Below, piece after piece: positions 1 to 7,194 of a stretch of DNA of 7,832 nucleotides. How positions within the stretch are numbered: position 1 is the first letter of the stretch; every line of letters begins with the position of its first letter. The translations under genes and the position numbers were made by a program. The notes beneath the pieces are model-generated. The model was not told the DNA's origin. It did not search any database and worked only from the letters and a program-made list of their open reading frames with translations. This DNA comes from a virus (Duplodnaviria > Heunggongvirae > Uroviricota > Caudoviricetes): positions 1 to 7,832 of IMG/VR virus record IMGVR_UViG_2534682222_000010. The stretch is one strand, 5' to 3'.

Positions 1-484
1 GGTATGTGAGAATGTCAGCAATAGTATTTTTACCGATAATGTCACGTCCAACAGAAGTTAAATCAGTCTGCGCAGCTGTATCAGTTCCAGTGAAATACGG
101 TAATTTATTTGCTGCGCCCACTAACGCGGCTAACGCCGTCAATGTAGGATTCAGCGGCTGGAAGTTCCCAAGGATGTAGGACAGCGTTCCGGCCGTCATC
201 ATGTTTGCCGCAATGTCATTTGCTGACCACGCTCGTGGGACAGTTCCTTCCTGCCCACGCTGAATAGTAAAGACATCACCAGCCCGGGCAGTAACATGAA
301 CAATCTCCGTAAGAGAACCGGTTGTAGCATCAATCAGCGTCAGCTTAAAGAAACTTGTGCCTGATACCGGAGAAGGAAATAGTGCACCAGTTCCGGTATT
401 TAGTGTCAACGATGTTGCTGAGGCGCTAATGCCAGCCGCCAGAACGCTTTGAGCATTGTTAGCAGCTAAAAGTTGAAGTGCCAT
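1..484 (-). CDS. Phage tail fibre protein, N-terminal 161 codons (gene continues beyond window start)
   Basis: Minus-strand ATG at 484..482, preceded by GGAGGA (493..488) with a 3-nt spacer. Hand translation MALQLLAANNAQSVLAAGISASATSLTLNTGTGALFPSPVSGTSFFKLTLIDATTGSLTEIVHVTARAGDVFTIQRGQEGTVPRAWSANDIAANMMTAGTLSYILGNFQPLNPTLTALAALVGAANKLPYFTGTDTAAQTDLTSVGRDIIGKNTIADILTY is open to position 1. The stretch TLTALAAL..NKLPYF..VGRDI..KN..AD is a motif I recall from enterobacterial prophage side tail fibre proteins. Absent from the ORF track because it is truncated by the window edge. Confidence 0.75.
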   Translation of the reverse strand, partial: MALQLLAANNAQSVLAAGISASATSLTLNTGTGALFPSPVSGTSFFKLTLIDATTGSLTEIVHVTARAGDVFTIQRGQEGTVPRAWSANDIAANMMTAGTLSYILGNFQPLNPTLTALAALVGAANKLPYFTGTDTAAQTDLTSVGRDIIGKNTIADILTY

Positions 485-505
485 TTATCCTCCGGGATTC
501 GGGCA

Positions 506-534
506 ATAAAAAACCCGCCGAAGCGGGTTTGGTT
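506..534 (-). terminator. Intrinsic terminator downstream of ant (possibly bidirectional)
   Basis: Perfect 6-bp stem ACCCGC (513..518) / GCGGGT (523..528) with a CGAA loop. On the minus strand the hairpin is followed by TTTTTTAT; on the plus strand only by TTGGTT, so it is stronger for the minus strand. Confidence 0.6.
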
Positions 535-542
535 AACGATTT

Positions 543-1517
543 TTAGTTAATTACGAATTCTGCTTTAGCGCCGCGGAAGGAGATTGTTTTGTTTCCTGCC
601 CGCCGGCAAGCATCAGCAATTGCTTTCATGCCATATTCAATATTTGCCAGATGACTTCTCATTGCTACGATTTCAGCCTTAGGCGCTGATACGTCAAACC
701 CTGCCGCCTCAAGAATACTGATCAAGCGAATGGCGGACGATGTTGAATTGTCGCCACAGAGCATAGGCATAGTGACGTCCAGGGCAGGTGCACACATTGA
801 CTTTCCGAATGACAGGTTGCCACTGCGAACCACCGGATTGTTGTCAATCCACCACTGGAGAGGAAGGTTTACGTCAAACTTCGGTGTAGGGAGCGCCTCT
901 TGCTTTCCAAGAAACTCGCCTTCAATCGGTACGCGCGCCGCAATAGATAGCGCTTCGGTAAACTGGTCGTCGCTGATTTCTTTGTAGCTGCAACCAAAGT
1001 GGGATTTCAGTGATGACCACATAGTGATCATTGCCTTGGCCTGACAATCTTTCGGCAGTGCTTTACCACGGGTCATTACCAGTTGTTTGATCGCCTCCTG
1101 CTGCTCGGGAGTGATTTTACCTGGTAATGCCTTTTTCGCCTTGCGTGGGTTTTTGACCTCGCCTTTAGTCCAGTATTCGTAAAGCACATCGTCGCACTCC
1201 TCCTGATAGCGAATGACGTTATCGCGAATTCCTGGCCGTACTTTGTTAGGGCTGATGGTTTGGAGCCAGCCATTCAGTTTGCGTAACGCAAGGCAAAGCA
1301 TGGTTTGTTTACCCCCTTTCGTAGGGATCATGATTTCCATGACCCCTTTAGCAAACCGTGATTTCAGCTTATCGACCTGACCTTGATAGGTTAATCCCAT
1401 GCCATCAATAATTGGGCGCATTGGGGTATAAGCCTCACCGTTGTGCTCTACCACGAAAAGAGAATTTCCATAGAAAGGCACGTTGATTGTACGATCTGCA
1501 ATTGCTAAACTATTCAT
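543..1517 (-). CDS. ant: Phage antirepressor (Ant-like), 324 aa
   Basis: Part of track ORF 543..1607, but I place the start at ATG 1517..1515 (MNSLAIADRTINVPF...), which has AAGGA 7 nt upstream. The track start at 1607 lies inside the arc coding sequence in another frame and has no spacer after its purine run. The N-terminal half resembles the AntA/Rha-type antirepressor domain from memory. Location immediately downstream of an Arc homologue and divergent from an Mnt-like gene matches P22 immI. Confidence 0.75.
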   Translation of the reverse strand: MNSLAIADRTINVPFYGNSLFVVEHNGEAYTPMRPIIDGMGLTYQGQVDKLKSRFAKGVMEIMIPTKGGKQTMLCLALRKLNGWLQTISPNKVRPGIRDNVIRYQEECDDVLYEYWTKGEVKNPRKAKKALPGKITPEQQEAIKQLVMTRGKALPKDCQAKAMITMWSSLKSHFGCSYKEISDDQFTEALSIAARVPIEGEFLGKQEALPTPKFDVNLPLQWWIDNNPVVRSGNLSFGKSMCAPALDVTMPMLCGDNSTSSAIRLISILEAAGFDVSAPKAEIVAMRSHLANIEYGMKAIADACRRAGNKTISFRGAKAEFVIN

Positions 1518-1589
1518 TGTTAGTTCCTTGGTAGTTACTGACAAATTTGAAGCCCTGACTGTTGCTGCAGTTGGGGCTTCGTCGTTTCT
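1518..1589 (+). ncRNA. Candidate sar-like antisense RNA covering the ant ribosome-binding site
   Basis: Plus-strand candidate promoter inside the 5' end of ant: -35 TTGATT (1483..1488), 17-bp spacer, TG-extended -10 TGcTAAACT (1503..1511), predicted start near 1518. About 70 nt downstream is a hairpin plus U-rich tail (see terminator 1549..1589). The transcript would be complementary to the ant SD (1525..1529) and the arc-ant spacer. Inferred by analogy with P22 sar; not demonstrated. Confidence 0.3.
1549..1589 (+). terminator. Candidate intrinsic terminator for the antisense transcript
   Basis: Stem GAAGCCC (1549..1555) / GGGCTTC (1574..1580), with an inner ACTG/CAGT pairing (1558..1561 / 1568..1571), followed on the plus strand by GTCGTTTCT. 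On the minus strand it is followed by AAATTTG, so it is not a terminator in the mRNA direction. Confidence 0.35.
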
Positions 1590-1749
1590 ATGCCTTAATA
1601 AATCCATCTTCTTTCAAGCTCCTTTCTATACGTTTAATCACCTCACTGTTTACCGAGCGCCCCTCTTCTTTTGCTGCTTTCTTCAGGATTTCCTTCAGTG
1701 CATCAGGGAACCGAATGCCTGTTGGAGGGATGTTTCTTGCGTTGTGCAT
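1588..1749 (-). CDS. arc: Arc-like ribbon-helix-helix repressor, 53 aa (not in ORF track)
   Basis: Minus-strand ATG at 1749..1747 with AGGAGA (1760..1755) 5 nt upstream; TAG stop at 1590..1588. Hand translation MHNARNIPPTGIRFPDALKEILKKAAKEEGRSVNSEVIKRIERSLKEDGFIKA. Same length as P22 Arc and, from my memory of that sequence, shares the EEGRSVNSE core and C-terminal KEDG.I.A pattern. Sits directly upstream of ant as in P22. Confidence 0.85.
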   Translation of the reverse strand: MHNARNIPPTGIRFPDALKEILKKAAKEEGRSVNSEVIKRIERSLKEDGFIKA

Positions 1750-1771
1750 ATCATTCTCCTACTCAAAAAAA

Positions 1772-1784
1772 CTACATTATGTAG
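1772..1784. promoter_or_regulatory. Operator candidate 1: perfect 13-bp palindrome CTACAT-T-ATGTAG
   Basis: 6-bp arms around one central base. Embedded in a 17-bp unit ACTACATTATGTAGATT (1771..1787) that recurs exactly at 1828..1844. Lies just downstream of the candidate -10 of the arc-ant promoter, at the predicted transcript start. Confidence 0.6.
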
Positions 1785-1788
1785 ATTT

Positions 1789-1837
1789 ATAATTACAGCA
1801 TGTGTCTATTGCGTCAAGCACTTTTCGACTACATTAT
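1789..1837. promoter_or_regulatory. Candidate divergent, overlapping promoters (Pant-like on minus strand, Pmnt-like on plus strand)
   Basis: Minus strand: -35 TTGACG (1817..1812), 17-bp spacer, -10 AATTAT (1794..1789). Plus strand: -35 TTGCGT (1809..1814), 17-bp spacer, -10 CATTAT (1832..1837). The two -35 hexamers overlap on opposite strands. A perfect plus-strand TATAAT also sits at 1788..1793 but has no good -35. Hexamer assignments are by eye and uncertain. Confidence 0.3.
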
Positions 1838-1841
1838 GTAG
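1829..1841. promoter_or_regulatory. Operator candidate 2: identical 13-bp palindrome CTACAT-T-ATGTAG
   Basis: Second exact copy, centre 57 bp from the first. Overlaps the candidate -10 (CATTAT, 1832..1837) of the plus-strand promoter for the Mnt-like gene and lies upstream of the -35 of the minus-strand promoter. Confidence 0.6.
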
Positions 1842-1864
1842 ATTGTTGATTCTGAGGATGTAGC

Positions 1865-2197
1865 ATGAAAGGTGCCAGCTTGATAGCCCCGCTCGGGGTG
1901 AGGATCCCTGAAGATTTAAAGGAAAAAATCCAAGCCCAAGCAAAGGAAAACGGACGGTCGACTAACGCTGAAATCGTTCAAATACTCGAAAGTTCGTTTT
2001 CAAAGCTTGATGAAGGTGAAAACAATCGTTCGAATGAAACTTCAGGCCATTATCAATACTTACTGAGTATGAAGGATGAAATTATTGAGGCACAAAAGGA
2101 AACTATATCTCACATGGAAAACACTATAAATAGCCTCAGCGAGCACATTAACATTCTGAAAGATCATGTTGAGTTTTTGAAGAATAAGTACAAATAG
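1865..2197 (+). CDS. Mnt-like ribbon-helix-helix repressor with C-terminal coiled-coil extension, 110 aa
   Basis: Track ORF 1865..2197. ATG at 1865 with GAGGA (1854..1858) 6 nt upstream. N-terminus LGVRIPEDLKEKIQAQAKENGRSTNAEIVQILESSF fits the Arc/Mnt/MetJ pattern (beta-strand, helix, NGRS turn, helix). The C-terminal ~50 residues look coiled-coil-like with heptad-spaced hydrophobics. Divergent from arc-ant, the position P22 mnt occupies. Confidence 0.7.
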   Translation: MKGASLIAPLGVRIPEDLKEKIQAQAKENGRSTNAEIVQILESSFSKLDEGENNRSNETSGHYQYLLSMKDEIIEAQKETISHMENTINSLSEHINILKDHVEFLKNKYK

Positions 2198-2202
2198 CAA
2201 AA

Positions 2203-2220
2203 AGCCCACTGAAGTGGGCT
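2203..2220. terminator. Bidirectional intrinsic terminator between convergent genes
   Basis: Stem AGCCCAC (2203..2209) / GTGGGCT (2214..2220) with a TGAA loop. Followed on the plus strand by TTGCGATTT and on the minus strand by TTTTTGC. Lies between the stop of the Mnt-like gene (2197) and the stop of the minus-strand exported-protein gene (2231). Confidence 0.6.
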
Positions 2221-2230
2221 TTGCGATTTA

Positions 2231-2686
2231 CTACCATTGTTTTTTTAAATCGTCTTCTGTCATTTTTAATCTAAAAATATCTTTATATTTTTTTATGTAA
2301 ACTTCAGGGGATGCCCTGCACTTCATTTGAAAGTTTTTATCAAAATACTCCGTATTTCTTTTTATTCCTTCAACGGCGTCATTTTTTATCAACTCTTTAA
2401 CAATCATTCTGTATTCATCATGTGGGATAAGTAATATGTCACCAATCATATGGTCTCCTGAATACTGACCACTTACAGCATCATTTGCTGCATTGATGAT
2501 AAGCAAGGATGATGCAAAGCACATATTGTAAATATTTAGATCCGTTGGTTTCAACCCTGATTTTTTAATTTCATTTAACATCATTGAGTATTCTTCTTGA
2601 TCATTGGTTGGTAATGGAGCCGCCAACCCAACATGAACAGTTGAGAAAAAATACAAAAAACATGTTATTCCTATTTTTTTTATCAT
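2231..2686 (-). CDS. Hypothetical small exported protein with N-terminal signal peptide, AT-rich moron
   Basis: Track ORF 2231..2692, but the codon at 2692..2690 is GTG; the first ATG is 2686..2684, giving MIKKIGITCFLYFFSTVHVGLA/APLPTNDQ... (151 aa). N-terminus has a basic start, hydrophobic core and small residues at -3/-1, consistent with a signal peptidase I site; no lipobox. Two Cys in the mature part. By inspection the gene is much more AT-rich than the flanking baseplate genes. I recognise no family. Confidence 0.55.
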   Translation of the reverse strand: MIKKIGITCFLYFFSTVHVGLAAPLPTNDQEEYSMMLNEIKKSGLKPTDLNIYNMCFASSLLIINAANDAVSGQYSGDHMIGDILLIPHDEYRMIVKELIKNDAVEGIKRNTEYFDKNFQMKCRASPEVYIKKYKDIFRLKMTEDDLKKQW

Positions 2687-2733
2687 GCCCACTAACCCAG
2701 GTTATAAATGACTCGGAAGATAAGCATAACAAT

Positions 2734-3438
2734 TCAACCAATGATAGTCACGCTAACGGGTTGATAAAATGGCATGTGTAGCAGGCCGCTGTCAAACGCC
2801 TGCTTGAACAACGAAGCATATTCGTAGTTCGTGCTTTTTATCAGCAGGATTTTCTTCTGGTTGAACACCTGTGAATTGTAGGAAAATTTGTTGAACATGG
2901 AGGCATCAGTGAGTTTCCTGTACCCTTTGATGATCGATATGCTCGCCCCAGAATCAGAAAACAGAACCGAAATGCTCCACCTCTGATCGTTAACGACGTC
3001 TACGCCATCAACCCCTGTAAGAAACCTCATTATCCGGCGCTTTAACCATGGAATGGTGAAGTAATACCCGTCACCTTTATAGAAATTCCACGTCATGATT
3101 CGCTTAAACAGATCGTCTGAAACGACAACCTGCTCTGACTGATTAACCACCTTTCGCCCATTGAATGGCAACTGGTTGAACAGAACGGCGTTGTACGGGC
3201 CGAAAACGGATTGCTTTCCACTGACCAGCACCGGCGGCTTAACGCCATAAATCCCGCGGGCAATCCATTTTAACTGGTCACCAGCATTATACCCACCGAC
3301 AAAGATCGGAAGGTTGGCATTAATCATCCATGAATAAATTTCCTGAGCCATGGTATTATACGCAGTGACGAAGGCCTGTAGATCATCGTCGTCGTTATAC
3401 TGCGTATACAGATATGATTTAATTATATCTTCCAGCAT
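2734..3438 (-). CDS. Phage tail/baseplate protein, DUF2612 / gpI-like position (234 aa)
   Basis: Track ORF 2734..3456 starts on TTG; the first ATG is 3438..3436, one nucleotide after the TAA stop of the upstream gene (3442..3440). Lies directly after the baseplate-J-like gene, as in Mu-type and P2-type baseplate modules. Family call is from memory of DUF2612-type tail proteins. Confidence 0.55.
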   Translation of the reverse strand: MLEDIIKSYLYTQYNDDDDLQAFVTAYNTMAQEIYSWMINANLPIFVGGYNAGDQLKWIARGIYGVKPPVLVSGKQSVFGPYNAVLFNQLPFNGRKVVNQSEQVVVSDDLFKRIMTWNFYKGDGYYFTIPWLKRRIMRFLTGVDGVDVVNDQRWSISVLFSDSGASISIIKGYRKLTDASMFNKFSYNSQVFNQKKILLIKSTNYEYASLFKQAFDSGLLHMPFYQPVSVTIIG

Positions 3439-3439
3439 G

Positions 3440-4858
3440 TTATATCCCGTCGACAATTACCCCATTTGAGGCCATGTACCAGTAACTATATGGGTCACCG
3501 CTGATTATATTCGTACCGGCGTCAACGCCTGTGATAACGCCGTTCACAGTCACAATAACATTCAGGGTCGAGATCAGGCTCATATCGAGCGTGCTGTTAA
3601 TCGCCTGAAGAAAGACATCTTTGACGTTATTTATATTCATCGGCTTTCCTGCGAATATCCCGTTTACATAATTGATTACCGGTTGCGTCACCAGAGAGGC
3701 TATTGTCGCGTCTGTCAGGTAGTTCGCGCTTTCGGTTGCCCACTGAAACTTGATAGTCACCAGTTGCTGAAATGGTATAACAAACGGTATCAGGTAGTTA
3801 TCTGGCCAGTCGTTGACCGTAACCACATTATTCCTCAGGTTCGGCGTAACTATTCCACCACCAGTCCATGCGCCTGACGAGGTGGTATTGATGCCTATTG
3901 AGAAAGTGTGTGGACTTAACACGGTTATAGTGAGAGGGACGTTATTAATCCCGCTCATGCCGGTAACACCTGCGATATTAATTACCTGGCCAGAGCTGAA
4001 TCCGTGCGTGATGTCGGTCGTTACTACTCCTGGGTTCGCATTGGTGATCCCGGTGACGTTCAGGTCAGTCCCTTTTAGCCTGCTGATGTCGCCGGCTGAC
4101 TTATAAATGGCCCCGGCCATCTCATAGATATCGCCGCCGCCACACATAACAATCCAGGCATTACCGCTCTGAACAACGGAAACCAGACGAGCCTGGACAT
4201 TACTCAGGTCTGTCAATTTCTGGCGGATAAAGCCTGGATATCCCTGAACAGTCGACATCTGAGCTTCCCAGACGCGCTCGCGAAATTCGAAGTTAGTTTC
4301 AGGCGCACCACCTGGGGTGCCAGCAACCGGGTTGGTGCAGGTCAGAGTAATGCCAGACGGCAGGCTGGTCAGTATCTGATTAACCGATCCTACCGGTACA
4401 GCCCACGAACCAGTGTTTGTTGCAATGGCTGTTACCATCGAACTGACACCGGAAGACAGCACCACTGTCGCATCGGCGATCTGGTAGGTATACGTGCCAT
4501 CGCTGACCAGAAACCCCTGTGACACTACGAAGCCGACCGGGCCCTCAAACACGACAGGTACAGTTGTCGCCCCCTGAGTTTTTTGTTCGCTGATACCTGA
4601 CTGCTGGGCCAGAAGGTTCAGCATGTACATATTGGCTTTCAGCGGGCCTACGGAGTTGATGAGGTCGACACGAATCTGATCGGCAATGAGTAGCGCGCCA
4701 ACATCGGTACCGACGATATCCTCGATAAGTGATCCGGGGAGGTCCGTAGTGATGCCTGGTGATAATTCTGTGGCTCTTGAAACTAAGTCGGCGCGCAGCT
4801 CTTCGGATGTTTTCGGCACTGGCCCGGCTGCGTCATAGCTAACGGACAAATCACTCAT
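3440..4858 (-). CDS. Baseplate J-like protein (472 aa)
   Basis: Track ORF with ATG at 4858..4856 overlapping the upstream stop as ATGA. Size and position (after a ~110-aa gene, before the gpI-like gene and tail fibre) fit baseplate wedge protein J of Mu (gp47) or P2 (gpJ). Assigned by overall resemblance and synteny; unverified. Confidence 0.65.
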   Translation of the reverse strand: MSDLSVSYDAAGPVPKTSEELRADLVSRATELSPGITTDLPGSLIEDIVGTDVGALLIADQIRVDLINSVGPLKANMYMLNLLAQQSGISEQKTQGATTVPVVFEGPVGFVVSQGFLVSDGTYTYQIADATVVLSSGVSSMVTAIATNTGSWAVPVGSVNQILTSLPSGITLTCTNPVAGTPGGAPETNFEFRERVWEAQMSTVQGYPGFIRQKLTDLSNVQARLVSVVQSGNAWIVMCGGGDIYEMAGAIYKSAGDISRLKGTDLNVTGITNANPGVVTTDITHGFSSGQVINIAGVTGMSGINNVPLTITVLSPHTFSIGINTTSSGAWTGGGIVTPNLRNNVVTVNDWPDNYLIPFVIPFQQLVTIKFQWATESANYLTDATIASLVTQPVINYVNGIFAGKPMNINNVKDVFLQAINSTLDMSLISTLNVIVTVNGVITGVDAGTNIISGDPYSYWYMASNGVIVDGI

Positions 4859-5900: not shown

Positions 5901-6919
5901 TTTGTCTTAACCGCCTCCGCCGGGTATGCCTCAATCACCGTGATCCACGCCTCTGCTGTCGGCTGCCTGCTGTTACCCAGCAACCTCACCGACTGAACGA
6001 CAAATTCGCCGTTAAACGCTGAGTCATCGCGAAACTGCGAGTAAGAGGATGCCTGAATCATCGGCCTGGCCTTTTCCGGCATCAGGATGTGATCGCCGGT
6101 CTGAAGGTCAGCGCGCATAACGCAGATGACGCTGACGACACCAAAGCTGATCCACGTTGGCTGACCTATCAGGTCATTGAAATTTATCTGGACAGGGTTT
6201 TTGCTCCTTCCCGTCGCGCTGGTTTTTGAACCCTGATCCGGGTGGTTGGCGTAGTCGTTATCCCACACCCGGATTTCGTTGCCATTGACCACGGCAATTT
6301 CCACCCCCGTATAGCCGGGGTCTTTGATGCGGGATAGCGAAAACGCCCTCAGGTTTTTTGCCAGCTCAGTGAGGGAGCCGCAAAACATGGGGCGATCGTA
6401 ATTCAGCGTCAGCCTGTCGCTGATGCTTATGTTCGGTGTAAATCCCCCCATCGTCATGACACATTGTGTCAGTGCTACGGAGAGTTTCTGCCCCATAGAC
6501 CATGGCATTGTCAGCTGGAGAGGAACCATTTGCCCGCGGGTTGTGGTGTTAACTGGACCAGAAACAATGATAAAATCAAGACGCATTTCTGTTCCTTGCC
6601 AGTTTCCGAATACCTGAAACACATAACCCTCAATAGCTAACTTTTTATTCCCCACGCCCGCCAGTGGGAGCCCTTTTGACATGCCAACAAAGATCTGAAT
6701 TTTTTTGCCATAGAGGTTCTGCCTTGCCTGCTGCATTTCTCTCGGCCCAATCCCCCATATTGTTAAATGGGTTTCACCCTGCGGGGTAGACTCTCCGAAC
6801 CTGAGAATGTCAAATTCAACCATCAAGGCGCCAGGGTTGTACGCTCCATTTTTATGACTGGAGTAGTGCTGGATGACTTTATCATTGCTATCAAGAATGT
6901 TTATCTCGTAATAACGCAT
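5897..6919 (-). CDS. Baseplate hub-like protein (Mu gp44/P-like position), 340 aa
   Basis: Track ORF; ATG at 6919..6917 shares one nucleotide with the upstream TGA (TGATG). Size and position immediately upstream of the spike-like gene fit a baseplate hub. Positional inference. Confidence 0.4.
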   Translation of the reverse strand: MRYYEINILDSNDKVIQHYSSHKNGAYNPGALMVEFDILRFGESTPQGETHLTIWGIGPREMQQARQNLYGKKIQIFVGMSKGLPLAGVGNKKLAIEGYVFQVFGNWQGTEMRLDFIIVSGPVNTTTRGQMVPLQLTMPWSMGQKLSVALTQCVMTMGGFTPNISISDRLTLNYDRPMFCGSLTELAKNLRAFSLSRIKDPGYTGVEIAVVNGNEIRVWDNDYANHPDQGSKTSATGRSKNPVQINFNDLIGQPTWISFGVVSVICVMRADLQTGDHILMPEKARPMIQASSYSQFRDDSAFNGEFVVQSVRLLGNSRQPTAEAWITVIEAYPAEAVKTK

Positions 6920-7194
6920 CAGCTTTTTACCTCAATCTGCCCGTTCTTTTCGCGCCAGATCATGGTCGTCGATGAGAAAACTCCACTTAAAAGGTTTATC
7001 CCCCCAGCAGATGTTGAACCTACGACGGCGGTATTCATGACCGTGTTGTCAGAACTATCAGTGATCAGCAGGTACCAACGCTGTGCGGCGATGTTCCACT
7101 TCATCTGGCAGGTATAAACGTTCCCGTCAAGAATTGGTGAGAACGTCACGCTACGCTGCTCTCTTCCAGTAAATGGATAATTGACGGTACTCAT
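6919..7194 (-). CDS. Hypothetical phage structural-module protein (91 aa)
   Basis: Track ORF; ATG at 7194..7192 overlaps the upstream stop (ATGA) and its stop overlaps the next start, so it is almost certainly translated as part of the operon. No family recognised. Confidence 0.45.
   Translation of the reverse strand: MSTVNYPFTGREQRSVTFSPILDGNVYTCQMKWNIAAQRWYLLITDSSDNTVMNTAVVGSTSAGGINLLSGVFSSTTMIWREKNGQIEVKS

What the first reader, a model, noticed from the sequence alone, without database searches (positions are those of the whole stretch)
2231..2733. AT-rich gene for a small exported protein inserted between the baseplate operon and the immunity module
The baseplate operon ends at 2734 and the tail fibre starts at 484; normally these are adjacent. 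The first gene of the intervening insert encodes a 151-aa protein with a clear N-terminal signal peptide and a sharp drop in G+C relative to its neighbours, pointing to foreign origin. It sits where P22 carries sieA (between late structural genes and mnt), so a superinfection-exclusion, anti-defence or periplasmic host-modulating role is plausible. I recognise no known family, which makes it the best candidate here for something undescribed.
Basis: partly seen in the sequence, partly recalled or inferred. Interest (0 to 1): 0.7.

Follow-up and report, generated by a model that had tools for sequence, protein, structure and literature searches.

The report
Orphan exported protein in prophage cargo slot
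A small AT-rich gene between a prophage's baseplate and tail-fibre genes encodes a probably periplasmic protein of an undescribed family, sitting in a swap-in slot that almost always holds one cell-envelope protein gene; this suggests a surface or phage-exclusion role, but that role is untested.

Summary
Window 2231-2686 (- strand) is a real 151-codon gene. Its G+C is 31% (GC3 29%), against 45-55% (GC3 57-65%) for the structural genes. It has a classical Sec-type signal peptide and is followed by a strong terminator.

It belongs to a tiny family of 21 clusters, all from Enterobacteriaceae prophages. The family has no Pfam, PHROG, NCBIfam, PADLOC, PDB or BFVD match. The mature domain is under strong purifying selection (dN/dS 0.1 or less) and has two invariant cysteines.

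Every homologue examined sits in the same place: directly after the last baseplate gene of a temperate myophage lineage (Klebsiella Chronis/RothC, Yersinia vB_YenM group 1). In 75 unbiased relatives:
- 4 slots are empty, so baseplate and tail fibre are adjacent.
- 70 hold exactly one of at least seven unrelated envelope-protein cargoes, such as a 2-TM protein, lipoproteins, signal-peptide proteins or O-antigen modifiers.
- 1 holds two such classes.

The P22-type immI module (Mnt/Arc/sar/Ant) is a separate cassette that combines with any of these cargoes.

The gene is therefore a classic moron-type cargo gene for a periplasmic protein. It is not a SieA homologue. Its function is inferred only. 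Phage entry exclusion is my leading guess (about 0.4), ahead of other envelope conversion roles. It is a new member of a known kind, of moderate interest.

The parts
2231..2686 (-). CDS of the 151-aa exported orphan protein. Signal peptide is codons 1-22 (2686-2621). The mature domain is about 129 aa, 15 kDa, pI 5.7, with two invariant Cys (C56, C123).
2687..2733 (-). 47-nt spacer between the baseplate gene stop and the start codon. It holds only a weak Shine-Dalgarno-like GGG/TGGG and a motif (GTCATTTaTAAaaCcTGG) shared with E. coli and Citrobacter alleles.
2723..2751 (-). Possible weak sigma-70 promoter (-35 GTGACT 2751-2746, 17-nt spacer, -10 TATGCT 2728-2723; 8 of 12 matches). An element occurs at the same position in all six divergent alleles. 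It is below the scan tool's threshold and is not demonstrated.
2201..2222 (-). Intrinsic terminator hairpin (AAAGCCCAC-TTCA-GTGGGCTTT followed by a T-run) 9 nt after the stop codon. It lies between the convergent candidate gene and the Mnt-like gene. Free energy is -17.4 kcal/mol, z = -5.3.
2734..3456 (-). Last gene of the baseplate operon (240 aa, phrog_8212). It is the upstream anchor of the cargo slot.
1865..2197 (+). Mnt-like ribbon-helix-helix repressor, the first gene of the separate immI cassette.
1588..1749 (-). Arc-like repressor (immI cassette).
1517..1584 (+). sar antisense RNA (Rfam RF00262, 46.9 bits against a gathering score of 43), as in P22 immI.
543..1607 (-). Antirepressor Ant (P22_AR_N domain). 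The longest ORF is 354 aa, but the real start is probably the ATG at 1517, just downstream of the sar-covered spacer.
505..530 (-). Backbone terminator hairpin plus T-run, followed by GGAGG and the tail-fibre start. It is conserved in relatives whatever the cargo and marks the downstream edge of the slot.
1..484 (-). N-terminal part of the tail-fibre gene (runs off the window). It is the downstream anchor of the slot.

Best explanation
Shown: 2231-2686(-) is a moron-type cargo gene. It is an AT-rich, independently acquired cassette (gene plus terminator, possibly a weak promoter) in a hypervariable slot between the last baseplate gene and the tail-fibre gene of a temperate, lambdoid-organised myophage lineage. 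It encodes a precursor with a Sec/SPase-I-type signal peptide and a hydrophilic, all-alpha mature domain of about 129 aa. That domain has two invariant cysteines and is under strong purifying selection. Inferred: the protein is exported to the periplasm and stabilised there by a disulfide. It is made from the prophage (own weak promoter) and/or as the last gene of the late baseplate transcript. It acts on the cell envelope. My committed guess for the mechanism is superinfection exclusion. The soluble periplasmic protein would bind a conserved periplasmic or inner-membrane-facing component needed for genome delivery by incoming phages. That could be a host factor, or the conserved lytic-transglycosylase-bearing ejection or tape-measure protein of related phages. 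DNA entry would be blocked after adsorption. The other, unrelated envelope proteins that alternate with it in the same slot would achieve the same end by other means.
For: The gene is real and constrained: dN/dS is 0.1 or less with saturated synonymous sites, and 43 columns are invariant across 22 sequences. Export signals: an n-h-c signal peptide is present in every full-length member even though its sequence is not conserved, and there is no lipobox. The only hydrophobic segment is the N-terminal one. There are exactly two Cys in every mature domain, 67 residues apart. The AF2 model is all-alpha, with pLDDT 80 and pTM 0.72. Moron anatomy: G+C is 31% against 45-55% here and in every homologue. 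A terminator follows the gene directly. The slot is empty in 4 relatives. Position is fixed: every context examined (E. coli, Citrobacter, Klebsiella, Raoultella, Salmonella, metagenomes) has the gene right after the 234-240-aa baseplate gene. The slot has a consistent theme: 71 of 75 unbiased relatives carry an envelope-protein gene there, and 70 carry exactly one class. The classes are a 2-TM protein, lipoproteins, signal-peptide proteins and Gtr/acyltransferase O-antigen modifiers. Isolated phages of the lineage also have a signal-peptide protein (Chronis gp22) or a lipoprotein (vB_YenM_29.18 gp073) there. Mutually exclusive, non-homologous envelope proteins at one fixed locus is the pattern known for exclusion and conversion genes (for example the three SieA sequence types, PMC10883804). 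The lysis cassette lies elsewhere in the genome. Low dN/dS argues for a conserved target and against an arms-race interface.
Against: No experiment or homology links this family, or any other non-Gtr cargo of the slot, to phage exclusion. All are 'unknown function'. PADLOC gives no hit. No sigma-70 promoter passes the scan threshold upstream. The best element matches only 8 of 12, so expression in lysogens is unproven and the gene may be purely late. The cargo type does not track the tail-fibre receptor-binding type. That removes the simplest self-receptor-masking model of the Llp/Cor kind. Many invariant polar residues (H89, E91, D69, D78, R124, several Tyr) would also fit an enzyme or a ligand-binding site. 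Signal-peptide cleavage and the disulfide are inferred. SignalP was not available, and the model coordinates could not be inspected.
Confidence: 0.4

Rival explanations
1. It is an envelope conversion or fitness factor unrelated to phages. A periplasmic protein made by the lysogen would protect or alter the host, for example as an orphan immunity protein against periplasm-acting toxins (T6SS effectors, bacteriocins, lysozymes), or as a stress, serum or host-interaction factor like the lambda Bor/Lom or Gifsy SodC morons.
For: The anatomy is the same as for the main explanation: exported, AT-rich, terminator-bounded cargo next to tail-fibre genes. Some occupants of the slot are O-antigen modification genes, which are classic lysogenic conversion. 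Strong purifying selection and many invariant polar residues fit a conserved ligand or an enzyme-like site. One degraded E. coli prophage keeps the gene although upstream structural genes are gone. From my own knowledge, periplasmic or outer-membrane virulence morons next to tail genes are well known (lom, bor, sodC).
Against: There is no similarity in sequence or fold to any solved immunity protein, lysozyme inhibitor, chaperone or enzyme. The family is very rare: 1 of 5,426 complete E. coli genomes and 1 of 100,044 species representatives. It is never found outside this phage slot, so there is no sign of selection as a host gene. No toxin or effector partner is nearby.
Confidence: 0.3
2. It is a late-expressed helper for the phage's own lytic cycle. 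Transcribed as the last gene of the baseplate operon, the periplasmic protein would act late in infection. It might, for example, keep progeny from adsorbing or ejecting into the dying cell or debris (T5 Llp-like logic), or tune envelope breakdown.
For: The gene is on the same strand as the baseplate operon and only 47 nt downstream of it, with no terminator between them and no convincing promoter of its own. The slot is occupied in 95% of relatives, as if the function were nearly indispensable.
Against: The commonest alternative cargo (a 2-TM protein, 34 of 75) and two signal-peptide families lie on the opposite strand, so they cannot be part of the late transcript. The lysis cassette is elsewhere. 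Four relatives have an empty slot. The cargo does not track the tail-fibre type. The AT-rich foreign composition and alternative unrelated occupants are not typical of core lytic functions.
Confidence: 0.15
3. The protein is not exported, or is not functional in this window. The N-terminal hydrophobic stretch would be an uncleaved membrane anchor, or the gene a decaying passenger.
For: Signal-peptide cleavage is only inferred. The translation-initiation signals are weak in this allele. One gene caller started the near-identical homologue at an internal codon, giving 141 aa.
Against: The reading frame is intact here and in all alleles, with dN/dS of 0.1 or less. The n-h-c layout with a small-x-small site is preserved despite sequence turnover of the N-terminus, where pN is about equal to pS. 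The mature domain is hydrophilic (GRAVY -0.53) and is predicted with good confidence to be a globular helical domain.
Confidence: 0.07

Closest known systems
P22 sieA (superinfection exclusion A), with the neighbouring immI region
   Same: The map position is the same: after the last late structural or ejection gene and before mnt (opposite strand), arc, sar and ant, then the tail fibre or spike (PMC10883804). The size is similar (about 150-165 aa). Both act in the envelope. Both occur as several sequence-unrelated types at one locus.
   Different: SieA is an integral inner-membrane protein with three TM segments and no signal sequence (PMC10883804). This protein has one N-terminal signal-type segment and a soluble mature domain. 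There is no sequence similarity: no PHROG or Pfam hit. The host phage is a contractile-tailed myophage and not a P22-like podophage.
T4 Spackle (Sp, gp61.3), a periplasmic inhibitor of the incoming phage's tail lysozyme (from my own knowledge)
   Same: Both are small soluble periplasmic proteins with a cleavable signal peptide and a mostly helical structure. Spackle is a working model of how a periplasmic protein can block genome entry. The lineage's tape-measure or ejection protein carries a lytic transglycosylase domain.
Lambda-type morons next to tail genes (lom between J and stf; bor), following the Hendrix/Juhala moron concept (from my own knowledge)
   Same: An extra gene lies between tail genes that are adjacent in relatives. 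Its base composition is deviant, it has its own terminator, its product is exported to the envelope, and the phage has a lambdoid late operon with a lysis-terminase-head-tail order.
   Different: Lom is a beta-barrel outer-membrane protein and Bor is a lipoprotein. This is a soluble all-alpha protein of an unrelated, undescribed family. A promoter of its own is not established.
Receptor-masking lipoproteins Llp (T5) and Cor (phi80/N15/T1), encoded next to receptor-binding protein genes (from my own knowledge)
   Same: Both are envelope-targeted exclusion genes placed beside the tail-fibre or RBP gene.
   Different: This protein has no lipobox. The cargo type does not co-vary with the tail-fibre C-terminal type. 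The lipoprotein families that alternate in the same slot (CL3, YenM gp073) are closer analogues.

Membership tests
Phage moron (extra gene cassette between conserved phage genes) | Lies between two genes that are adjacent in related phages | tested here: met
   Four relatives have 69-123 bp between the baseplate gene and the tail fibre (L046, L074, L076, L095). Others carry unrelated cargo at the same point.
Phage moron (extra gene cassette between conserved phage genes) | Nucleotide composition differs from the flanking phage genes | tested here: met
   G+C is 31.1% (GC3 29%) against 45-55% (GC3 57-65%). The same holds in all homologue loci.
Phage moron (extra gene cassette between conserved phage genes) | Own transcription terminator downstream | tested here: met
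   A hairpin at 2222-2201(-) has free energy -17.4 kcal/mol and z = -5.3. Homologues without immI are followed by the backbone terminator.
Phage moron (extra gene cassette between conserved phage genes) | Own promoter, with expression from the repressed prophage | tested here: inconclusive
   No site passes the scan threshold. A weak element matching 8-9 of 12 is positionally conserved in six alleles. Expression cannot be tested with these tools.
Sec-exported soluble periplasmic protein (SPase I substrate) | Tripartite signal peptide (basic n-region, hydrophobic core, small-x-small site), no lipobox, no further TM segment | tested here: met
   Manual criteria were applied to 22 sequences. K/R is present in the first 8 residues, the h-region peak is 2.1-3.5 (Kyte-Doolittle), and a site lies at residues 20-22. 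The only hydrophobic segment is N-terminal. SignalP was not available.
Sec-exported soluble periplasmic protein (SPase I substrate) | Actual cleavage and periplasmic location; disulfide between the two conserved Cys | not testable with these tools
   This needs fractionation, fusions or mass spectrometry.
P22 SieA family | Integral inner-membrane protein with about three TM segments and no signal sequence (PMC10883804) | tested here: not met
   There is a single N-terminal hydrophobic segment and the mature domain is hydrophilic, with GRAVY -0.53.
P22 SieA family | Sequence similarity to a SieA type | tested here: not met
   No PHROG or Pfam family matched. There was no tblastn hit in 50,697 phage records.
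P22 SieA family | Blocks DNA injection of related phages | not testable with these tools
   This needs plating and K+ efflux assays.
Cor/Llp-type receptor-blocking lipoproteins | Lipobox with an invariant Cys at the cleavage site | tested here: not met
   No L-x-x-C lipobox is present in any member. The Cys in the signal region (C9) is not conserved.
Known anti-phage defence systems (PADLOC-DB) | Match to a defence-protein model | tested here: not met
   There were no hits at E of 1 or less.
Any solved fold (including periplasmic immunity proteins, lysozyme inhibitors, T4 Spackle) | Significant structural or profile similarity | tested here: not met

The most novel reading that the evidence does not exclude
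The protein founds a new family of periplasmic, disulfide-stabilised all-alpha phage-exclusion (or toxin-immunity) proteins with a fold not seen in PDB or BFVD. The locus it occupies would then be a previously undescribed envelope-defence hot-spot of a widespread temperate myophage lineage. That hot-spot offers at least seven unrelated, mutually exclusive envelope proteins doing the same job by different mechanisms.
Probability: 0.3. Interest if true: 0.6.

Novelty: new member of a known kind. Interest (0 to 1): 0.42.

Why it matters
Exported moron products are how many prophages change the surface, phage sensitivity and fitness of their hosts. Few periplasmic examples are understood mechanistically. 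This family is undescribed and its fold finds no match in PDB or BFVD. The more useful result is the slot itself. It is a fixed position, occupied in about 95% of a widespread Enterobacteriaceae prophage lineage, and it holds exactly one of at least seven unrelated envelope proteins. That gives a compact, directly testable panel for discovering entry-exclusion or conversion mechanisms. If no phenotype is found, this is simply one more orphan cargo gene.

Tried and rejected
- Family searches: Pfam, PHROGs, NCBIfam and PADLOC gave no family for the protein or its E. coli homologue.
- tblastn against 50,697 phage records found nothing. Against 72,556 plasmids it found only noise, which argues against a plasmid-borne immunity relative such as a pesticin or colicin immunity gene.
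- A family profile searched against 1.84 billion cluster representatives recovered only members and fragments of the same family.
- A profile search of PDB sequences gave E of 0.35 or worse.
- hhalign against the other cargo families of the slot gave probabilities of 0.8-39% over short segments, so they are not distant relatives.
- Receptor-masking tied to the phage's own tail fibre was rejected as the simplest model. The gene occurs with 9 tail-fibre C-terminal types, and the same fibre types occur with other cargo.
- Lysis-cassette membership was rejected: lysis genes sit upstream of terminase in Chronis.
- An exact 33-mer from the gene was not found in 100,044 species-representative genomes, so the window's host remains unidentified. 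The identical allele with immI occurs in metagenome contigs L014, L015 and L018.
- Rfam found no RNA in or next to the gene, only sar in immI.

Full report
**What is in the window.** The - strand carries a run of overlapping or abutting structural genes from 7826 down to 2734. They include:
- a Pam3 gp18-like baseplate plug (6919-7194);
- a 472-aa Baseplate_J protein with an E1_FCCH domain (3440-4858);
- a final 240-aa gene, phrog_8212 (2734-3456).

After a 47-nt spacer comes the candidate ORF, 2231-2686(-). Next is a terminator hairpin at 2222-2201. After that comes a P22-type immunity I module:
- a Mnt-like RHH repressor, 1865-2197(+);
- Arc, 1588-1749(-);
- sar antisense RNA, 1517-1584(+), Rfam 46.9 bits;
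- Ant, 543-1607(-).

A second terminator (505-530, - strand) and a GGAGG precede the tail-fibre gene, which starts at 484 and runs off the window.

**Checking the observation.**
- The ORF is 153 codons from a GTG at 2692 and 151 from the ATG at 2686. Homologue N-termini favour the ATG.
- G+C is 31.1% (GC3 29%). The neighbouring baseplate gene is 45.1% and the rest of the operon is 48-55% (GC3 57-65%). The lowest 200-bp windows of the whole sequence lie at 2101-2700. The AT-rich tract extends into the Mnt-like gene.
- The N-terminus is MIKK, then IGITCFLYFFSTVHVGLA, then a small-x-small site (GLA|AP).
- All full-length homologues keep the same basic, hydrophobic, small-x-small layout, with a site at residues 20-22. 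The sequence of this region is free to vary: pN is 0.47-0.62 between distant alleles, about the same as pS.
- There is no lipobox and no other hydrophobic segment.
- The mature protein is about 129 aa, 15 kDa, pI 5.7 and hydrophilic. It has exactly two cysteines, and these are invariant across the family.
- In the mature domain, synonymous differences between alleles are near saturation (pS 0.64-0.86) while pN stays at 0.08-0.26. Where it can be computed, dN/dS is 0.05-0.10.

SignalP could not be run, so export rests on manual criteria.

**What the family is.** A search of 5.8 billion proteins found 21 clusters, each 141-155 aa apart from one 115-aa member that lacks the N-terminal region. They come from E. 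coli, Citrobacter, Salmonella diarizonae, Klebsiella grimontii, Raoultella and unnamed assemblies. All are annotated 'hypothetical'.

A profile of the family, scored against 1.84 billion representatives, found nothing outside the family. The following searches also found nothing:
- Pfam, PHROG, NCBIfam and PADLOC;
- tblastn against phage or plasmid records.

AlphaFold2 with the family alignment gives an all-alpha globular domain of eight helices, with pLDDT 80 and pTM 0.72. No search gives a significant match:
- Foldseek against PDB: best E 2.9;
- Foldseek against BFVD: best E 0.64;
- PDB sequence profile: best E 0.35.

AFDB could not be searched.

The family is rare. It occurs in 1 of 5,426 complete E. 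coli genomes and 1 of 100,044 species-representative genomes, Raoultella planticola ATCC 33531.

**Context is the informative part.** Every homologue whose surroundings I read lies immediately after the 234-240-aa last baseplate gene and before the tail fibre. This holds whatever the host genus and whatever the fibre. In all of them the gene is AT-rich (31-35%, GC3 28-30%) against a 45-52% backbone, and it is followed by a terminator, then GGAGG and the tail-fibre start.

I then fetched 80 IMG/VR loci using only the baseplate gene as bait. In the 75 that contain both anchors, I tabulated the slot:

| Slot content | Loci (of 75) |
|---|---|
| Empty (69-123 bp) | 4 |
| Exactly one class of envelope-protein gene | 70 |
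| Two classes | 1 |

The occupied slots break down by class as follows:

| Class | Loci |
|---|---|
| 82-120-aa two-TM protein on the opposite strand | 34 |
| Lipoprotein family | 13 |
| The candidate family | 7 |
| 232-337-aa signal-peptide family | 6 |
| GtrA/GtrC-like or acyltransferase O-antigen modification genes | 6 |
| 136-aa signal-peptide family | 4 |
| Singleton signal-peptide protein | 1 |

The locus with two classes pairs an O-antigen modification gene with a further singleton signal-peptide protein. It is counted once, in the O-antigen row.

These families are unrelated to one another by profile comparison. None has a known function.

Cultured members of the lineage show the same pattern. 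These are temperate, contractile-tailed phages such as Klebsiella vB_Kpn_Chronis and RothC/D, Yersinia vB_YenM_29.18 and Pantoea PdC23 (bioRxiv 10.1101/2024.12.02.626457; PMC9224151). Chronis gp22 is a signal-peptide protein and YenM gp073 is a lipoprotein.

**The immI module is a separate cassette.** It is present in 11 of the 75 loci. It always lies distal to the envelope gene. It is combined with five different envelope classes.

Six of the seven unbiased candidate-family loci lack immI. The window's arrangement, with an identical allele plus immI, recurs in three metagenome contigs (L014, L015, L018).

The region therefore has two independent sub-slots.

**Expression signals.** The gene is on the late-operon strand, 47 nt after the baseplate gene, with no terminator between them. 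Late read-through transcription is therefore likely.

No sigma-70 site passes the scan threshold upstream. A weak element (GTGACT, 17 nt, TATGCT at 2751-2723; 8 of 12 matches) has a counterpart at the same distance in six divergent alleles. That is suggestive only.

The Chronis genome is organised like a lambdoid phage: lysis cassette, then terminase, head, tail, baseplate, slot, fibres, integrase. Terminators inside the late operon therefore imply antiterminated late transcription. This part is inference. It is the arrangement in which lambda-type morons are expressed from their own promoters in lysogens.

**Most likely function.**
- Shown: this is a composition-foreign, terminator-bounded cargo gene for a protein with Sec-type export signals, in a slot dedicated to envelope proteins.
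- Inferred: the protein is periplasmic, soluble and disulfide-bonded, and it acts on the envelope.
- I commit to post-adsorption superinfection exclusion, with a probability of about 0.4. Three things point that way. Mutually exclusive, non-homologous envelope proteins at one locus is the pattern seen for exclusion genes. The locus mirrors P22 sieA-mnt-arc-ant. Strong purifying selection suggests a conserved target.

The evidence against is substantial:
- There is no homology or experimental link to exclusion.
- There is no proven prophage promoter.
- The cargo does not track the tail-fibre type. The candidate occurs with 9 fibre C-terminal types, and the same fibres occur with other cargo. 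That removes a simple own-receptor-masking model.
- Many invariant polar residues could equally mark an enzyme or a ligand site.

The rival explanations are:
- a non-phage conversion or immunity factor (0.3);
- a late-expressed helper of the phage's own cycle (0.15);
- no export or no function (0.07).

**Comparison with what is known.** The gene works like a moron. Three of the four sequence criteria are met, and the promoter criterion is inconclusive.
- It is not a SieA family member. SieA has three TM segments and no signal sequence (PMC10883804), and there is no sequence match.
- It is not a Cor/Llp lipoprotein, because it has no lipobox.
- It is not in PADLOC.
- It resembles T4 Spackle only in being a small helical periplasmic protein. 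No solved structure matches it.

**Verdict.** This is a new, orphan member of a known kind: an exported prophage cargo protein. It is not a new kind of system. The most useful by-product is the definition of the slot itself as a compact panel of unrelated envelope proteins that can be tested side by side.

Noticed in passing
window 1517-1584 (+): Rfam finds the P22 sar antisense RNA (RF00262, 46.9 bits against a gathering score of 43). It lies exactly between the arc stop (1588) and an in-frame ATG of ant at 1517. The 354-aa Ant ORF (543-1607), which overlaps arc, is therefore probably over-extended, and the real start is likely at 1517 (about 324 aa).
   Followed up: partly
window 484-2733; loci L016-L095: The region between the last baseplate gene and the tail fibre has two independent sub-slots. 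The proximal one holds exactly one envelope-protein class in 70 of 75 relatives. The distal one holds an optional immI module in 11 of 75, combined with five different envelope classes.
   Followed up: yes
L001:3575-3868 (+ in record; opposite to the late operon), also L004 and 34 IMG/VR loci: The commonest occupant of the slot is an 82-120-aa protein with two TM segments and a charged C-terminus, encoded on the strand opposite to the late genes. It has no known family. In topology it is a closer SieA- or Imm-like candidate than the finding itself.
   Followed up: partly
window 505-530 (-): A conserved hairpin plus T-run (AAACCCGCTTCGGCGGGTTTTTT) followed by GGAGG precedes the tail-fibre start in most relatives read, including one with an empty slot (L095). 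The tail fibre therefore lies behind a terminator, which implies antiterminated late transcription or a separate promoter.
   Followed up: partly
window 3440-4858 (-): The Baseplate_J-like protein carries a domain matching the ubiquitin-activating enzyme E1 FCCH domain (PF16190, E = 1.3e-14, residues 275-338). RefSeq names the E. coli homologues after it. It is an odd domain to find in a phage baseplate wedge protein.
   Followed up: no
window 2231-2686 versus L002:3564-4028: Alleles of the candidate gene are far more diverged (66% aa identity, synonymous sites saturated) than the flanking backbone (about 86% nt identity, 87-89% aa identity). This indicates that old alleles are swapped into the slot by recombination at the conserved flanks.
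   Followed up: partly
L087-L094 (about 3.3-4 kb slots): In some relatives the same slot holds a different tailspike-like gene plus GtrA/GtrC-like or acyltransferase genes (O-antigen modification) on the opposite strand. This is a seroconversion cassette placed beside the receptor-binding protein.
   Followed up: no
L101 (E. coli O93:H19, GCA_036437285.1): The structural genes upstream of the 238-aa baseplate gene are missing, and early-region-type genes (a zf-dskA_traR protein) abut that gene. The prophage appears to be partly deleted, yet it retains an intact candidate homologue and the tail-fibre genes.
   Followed up: no
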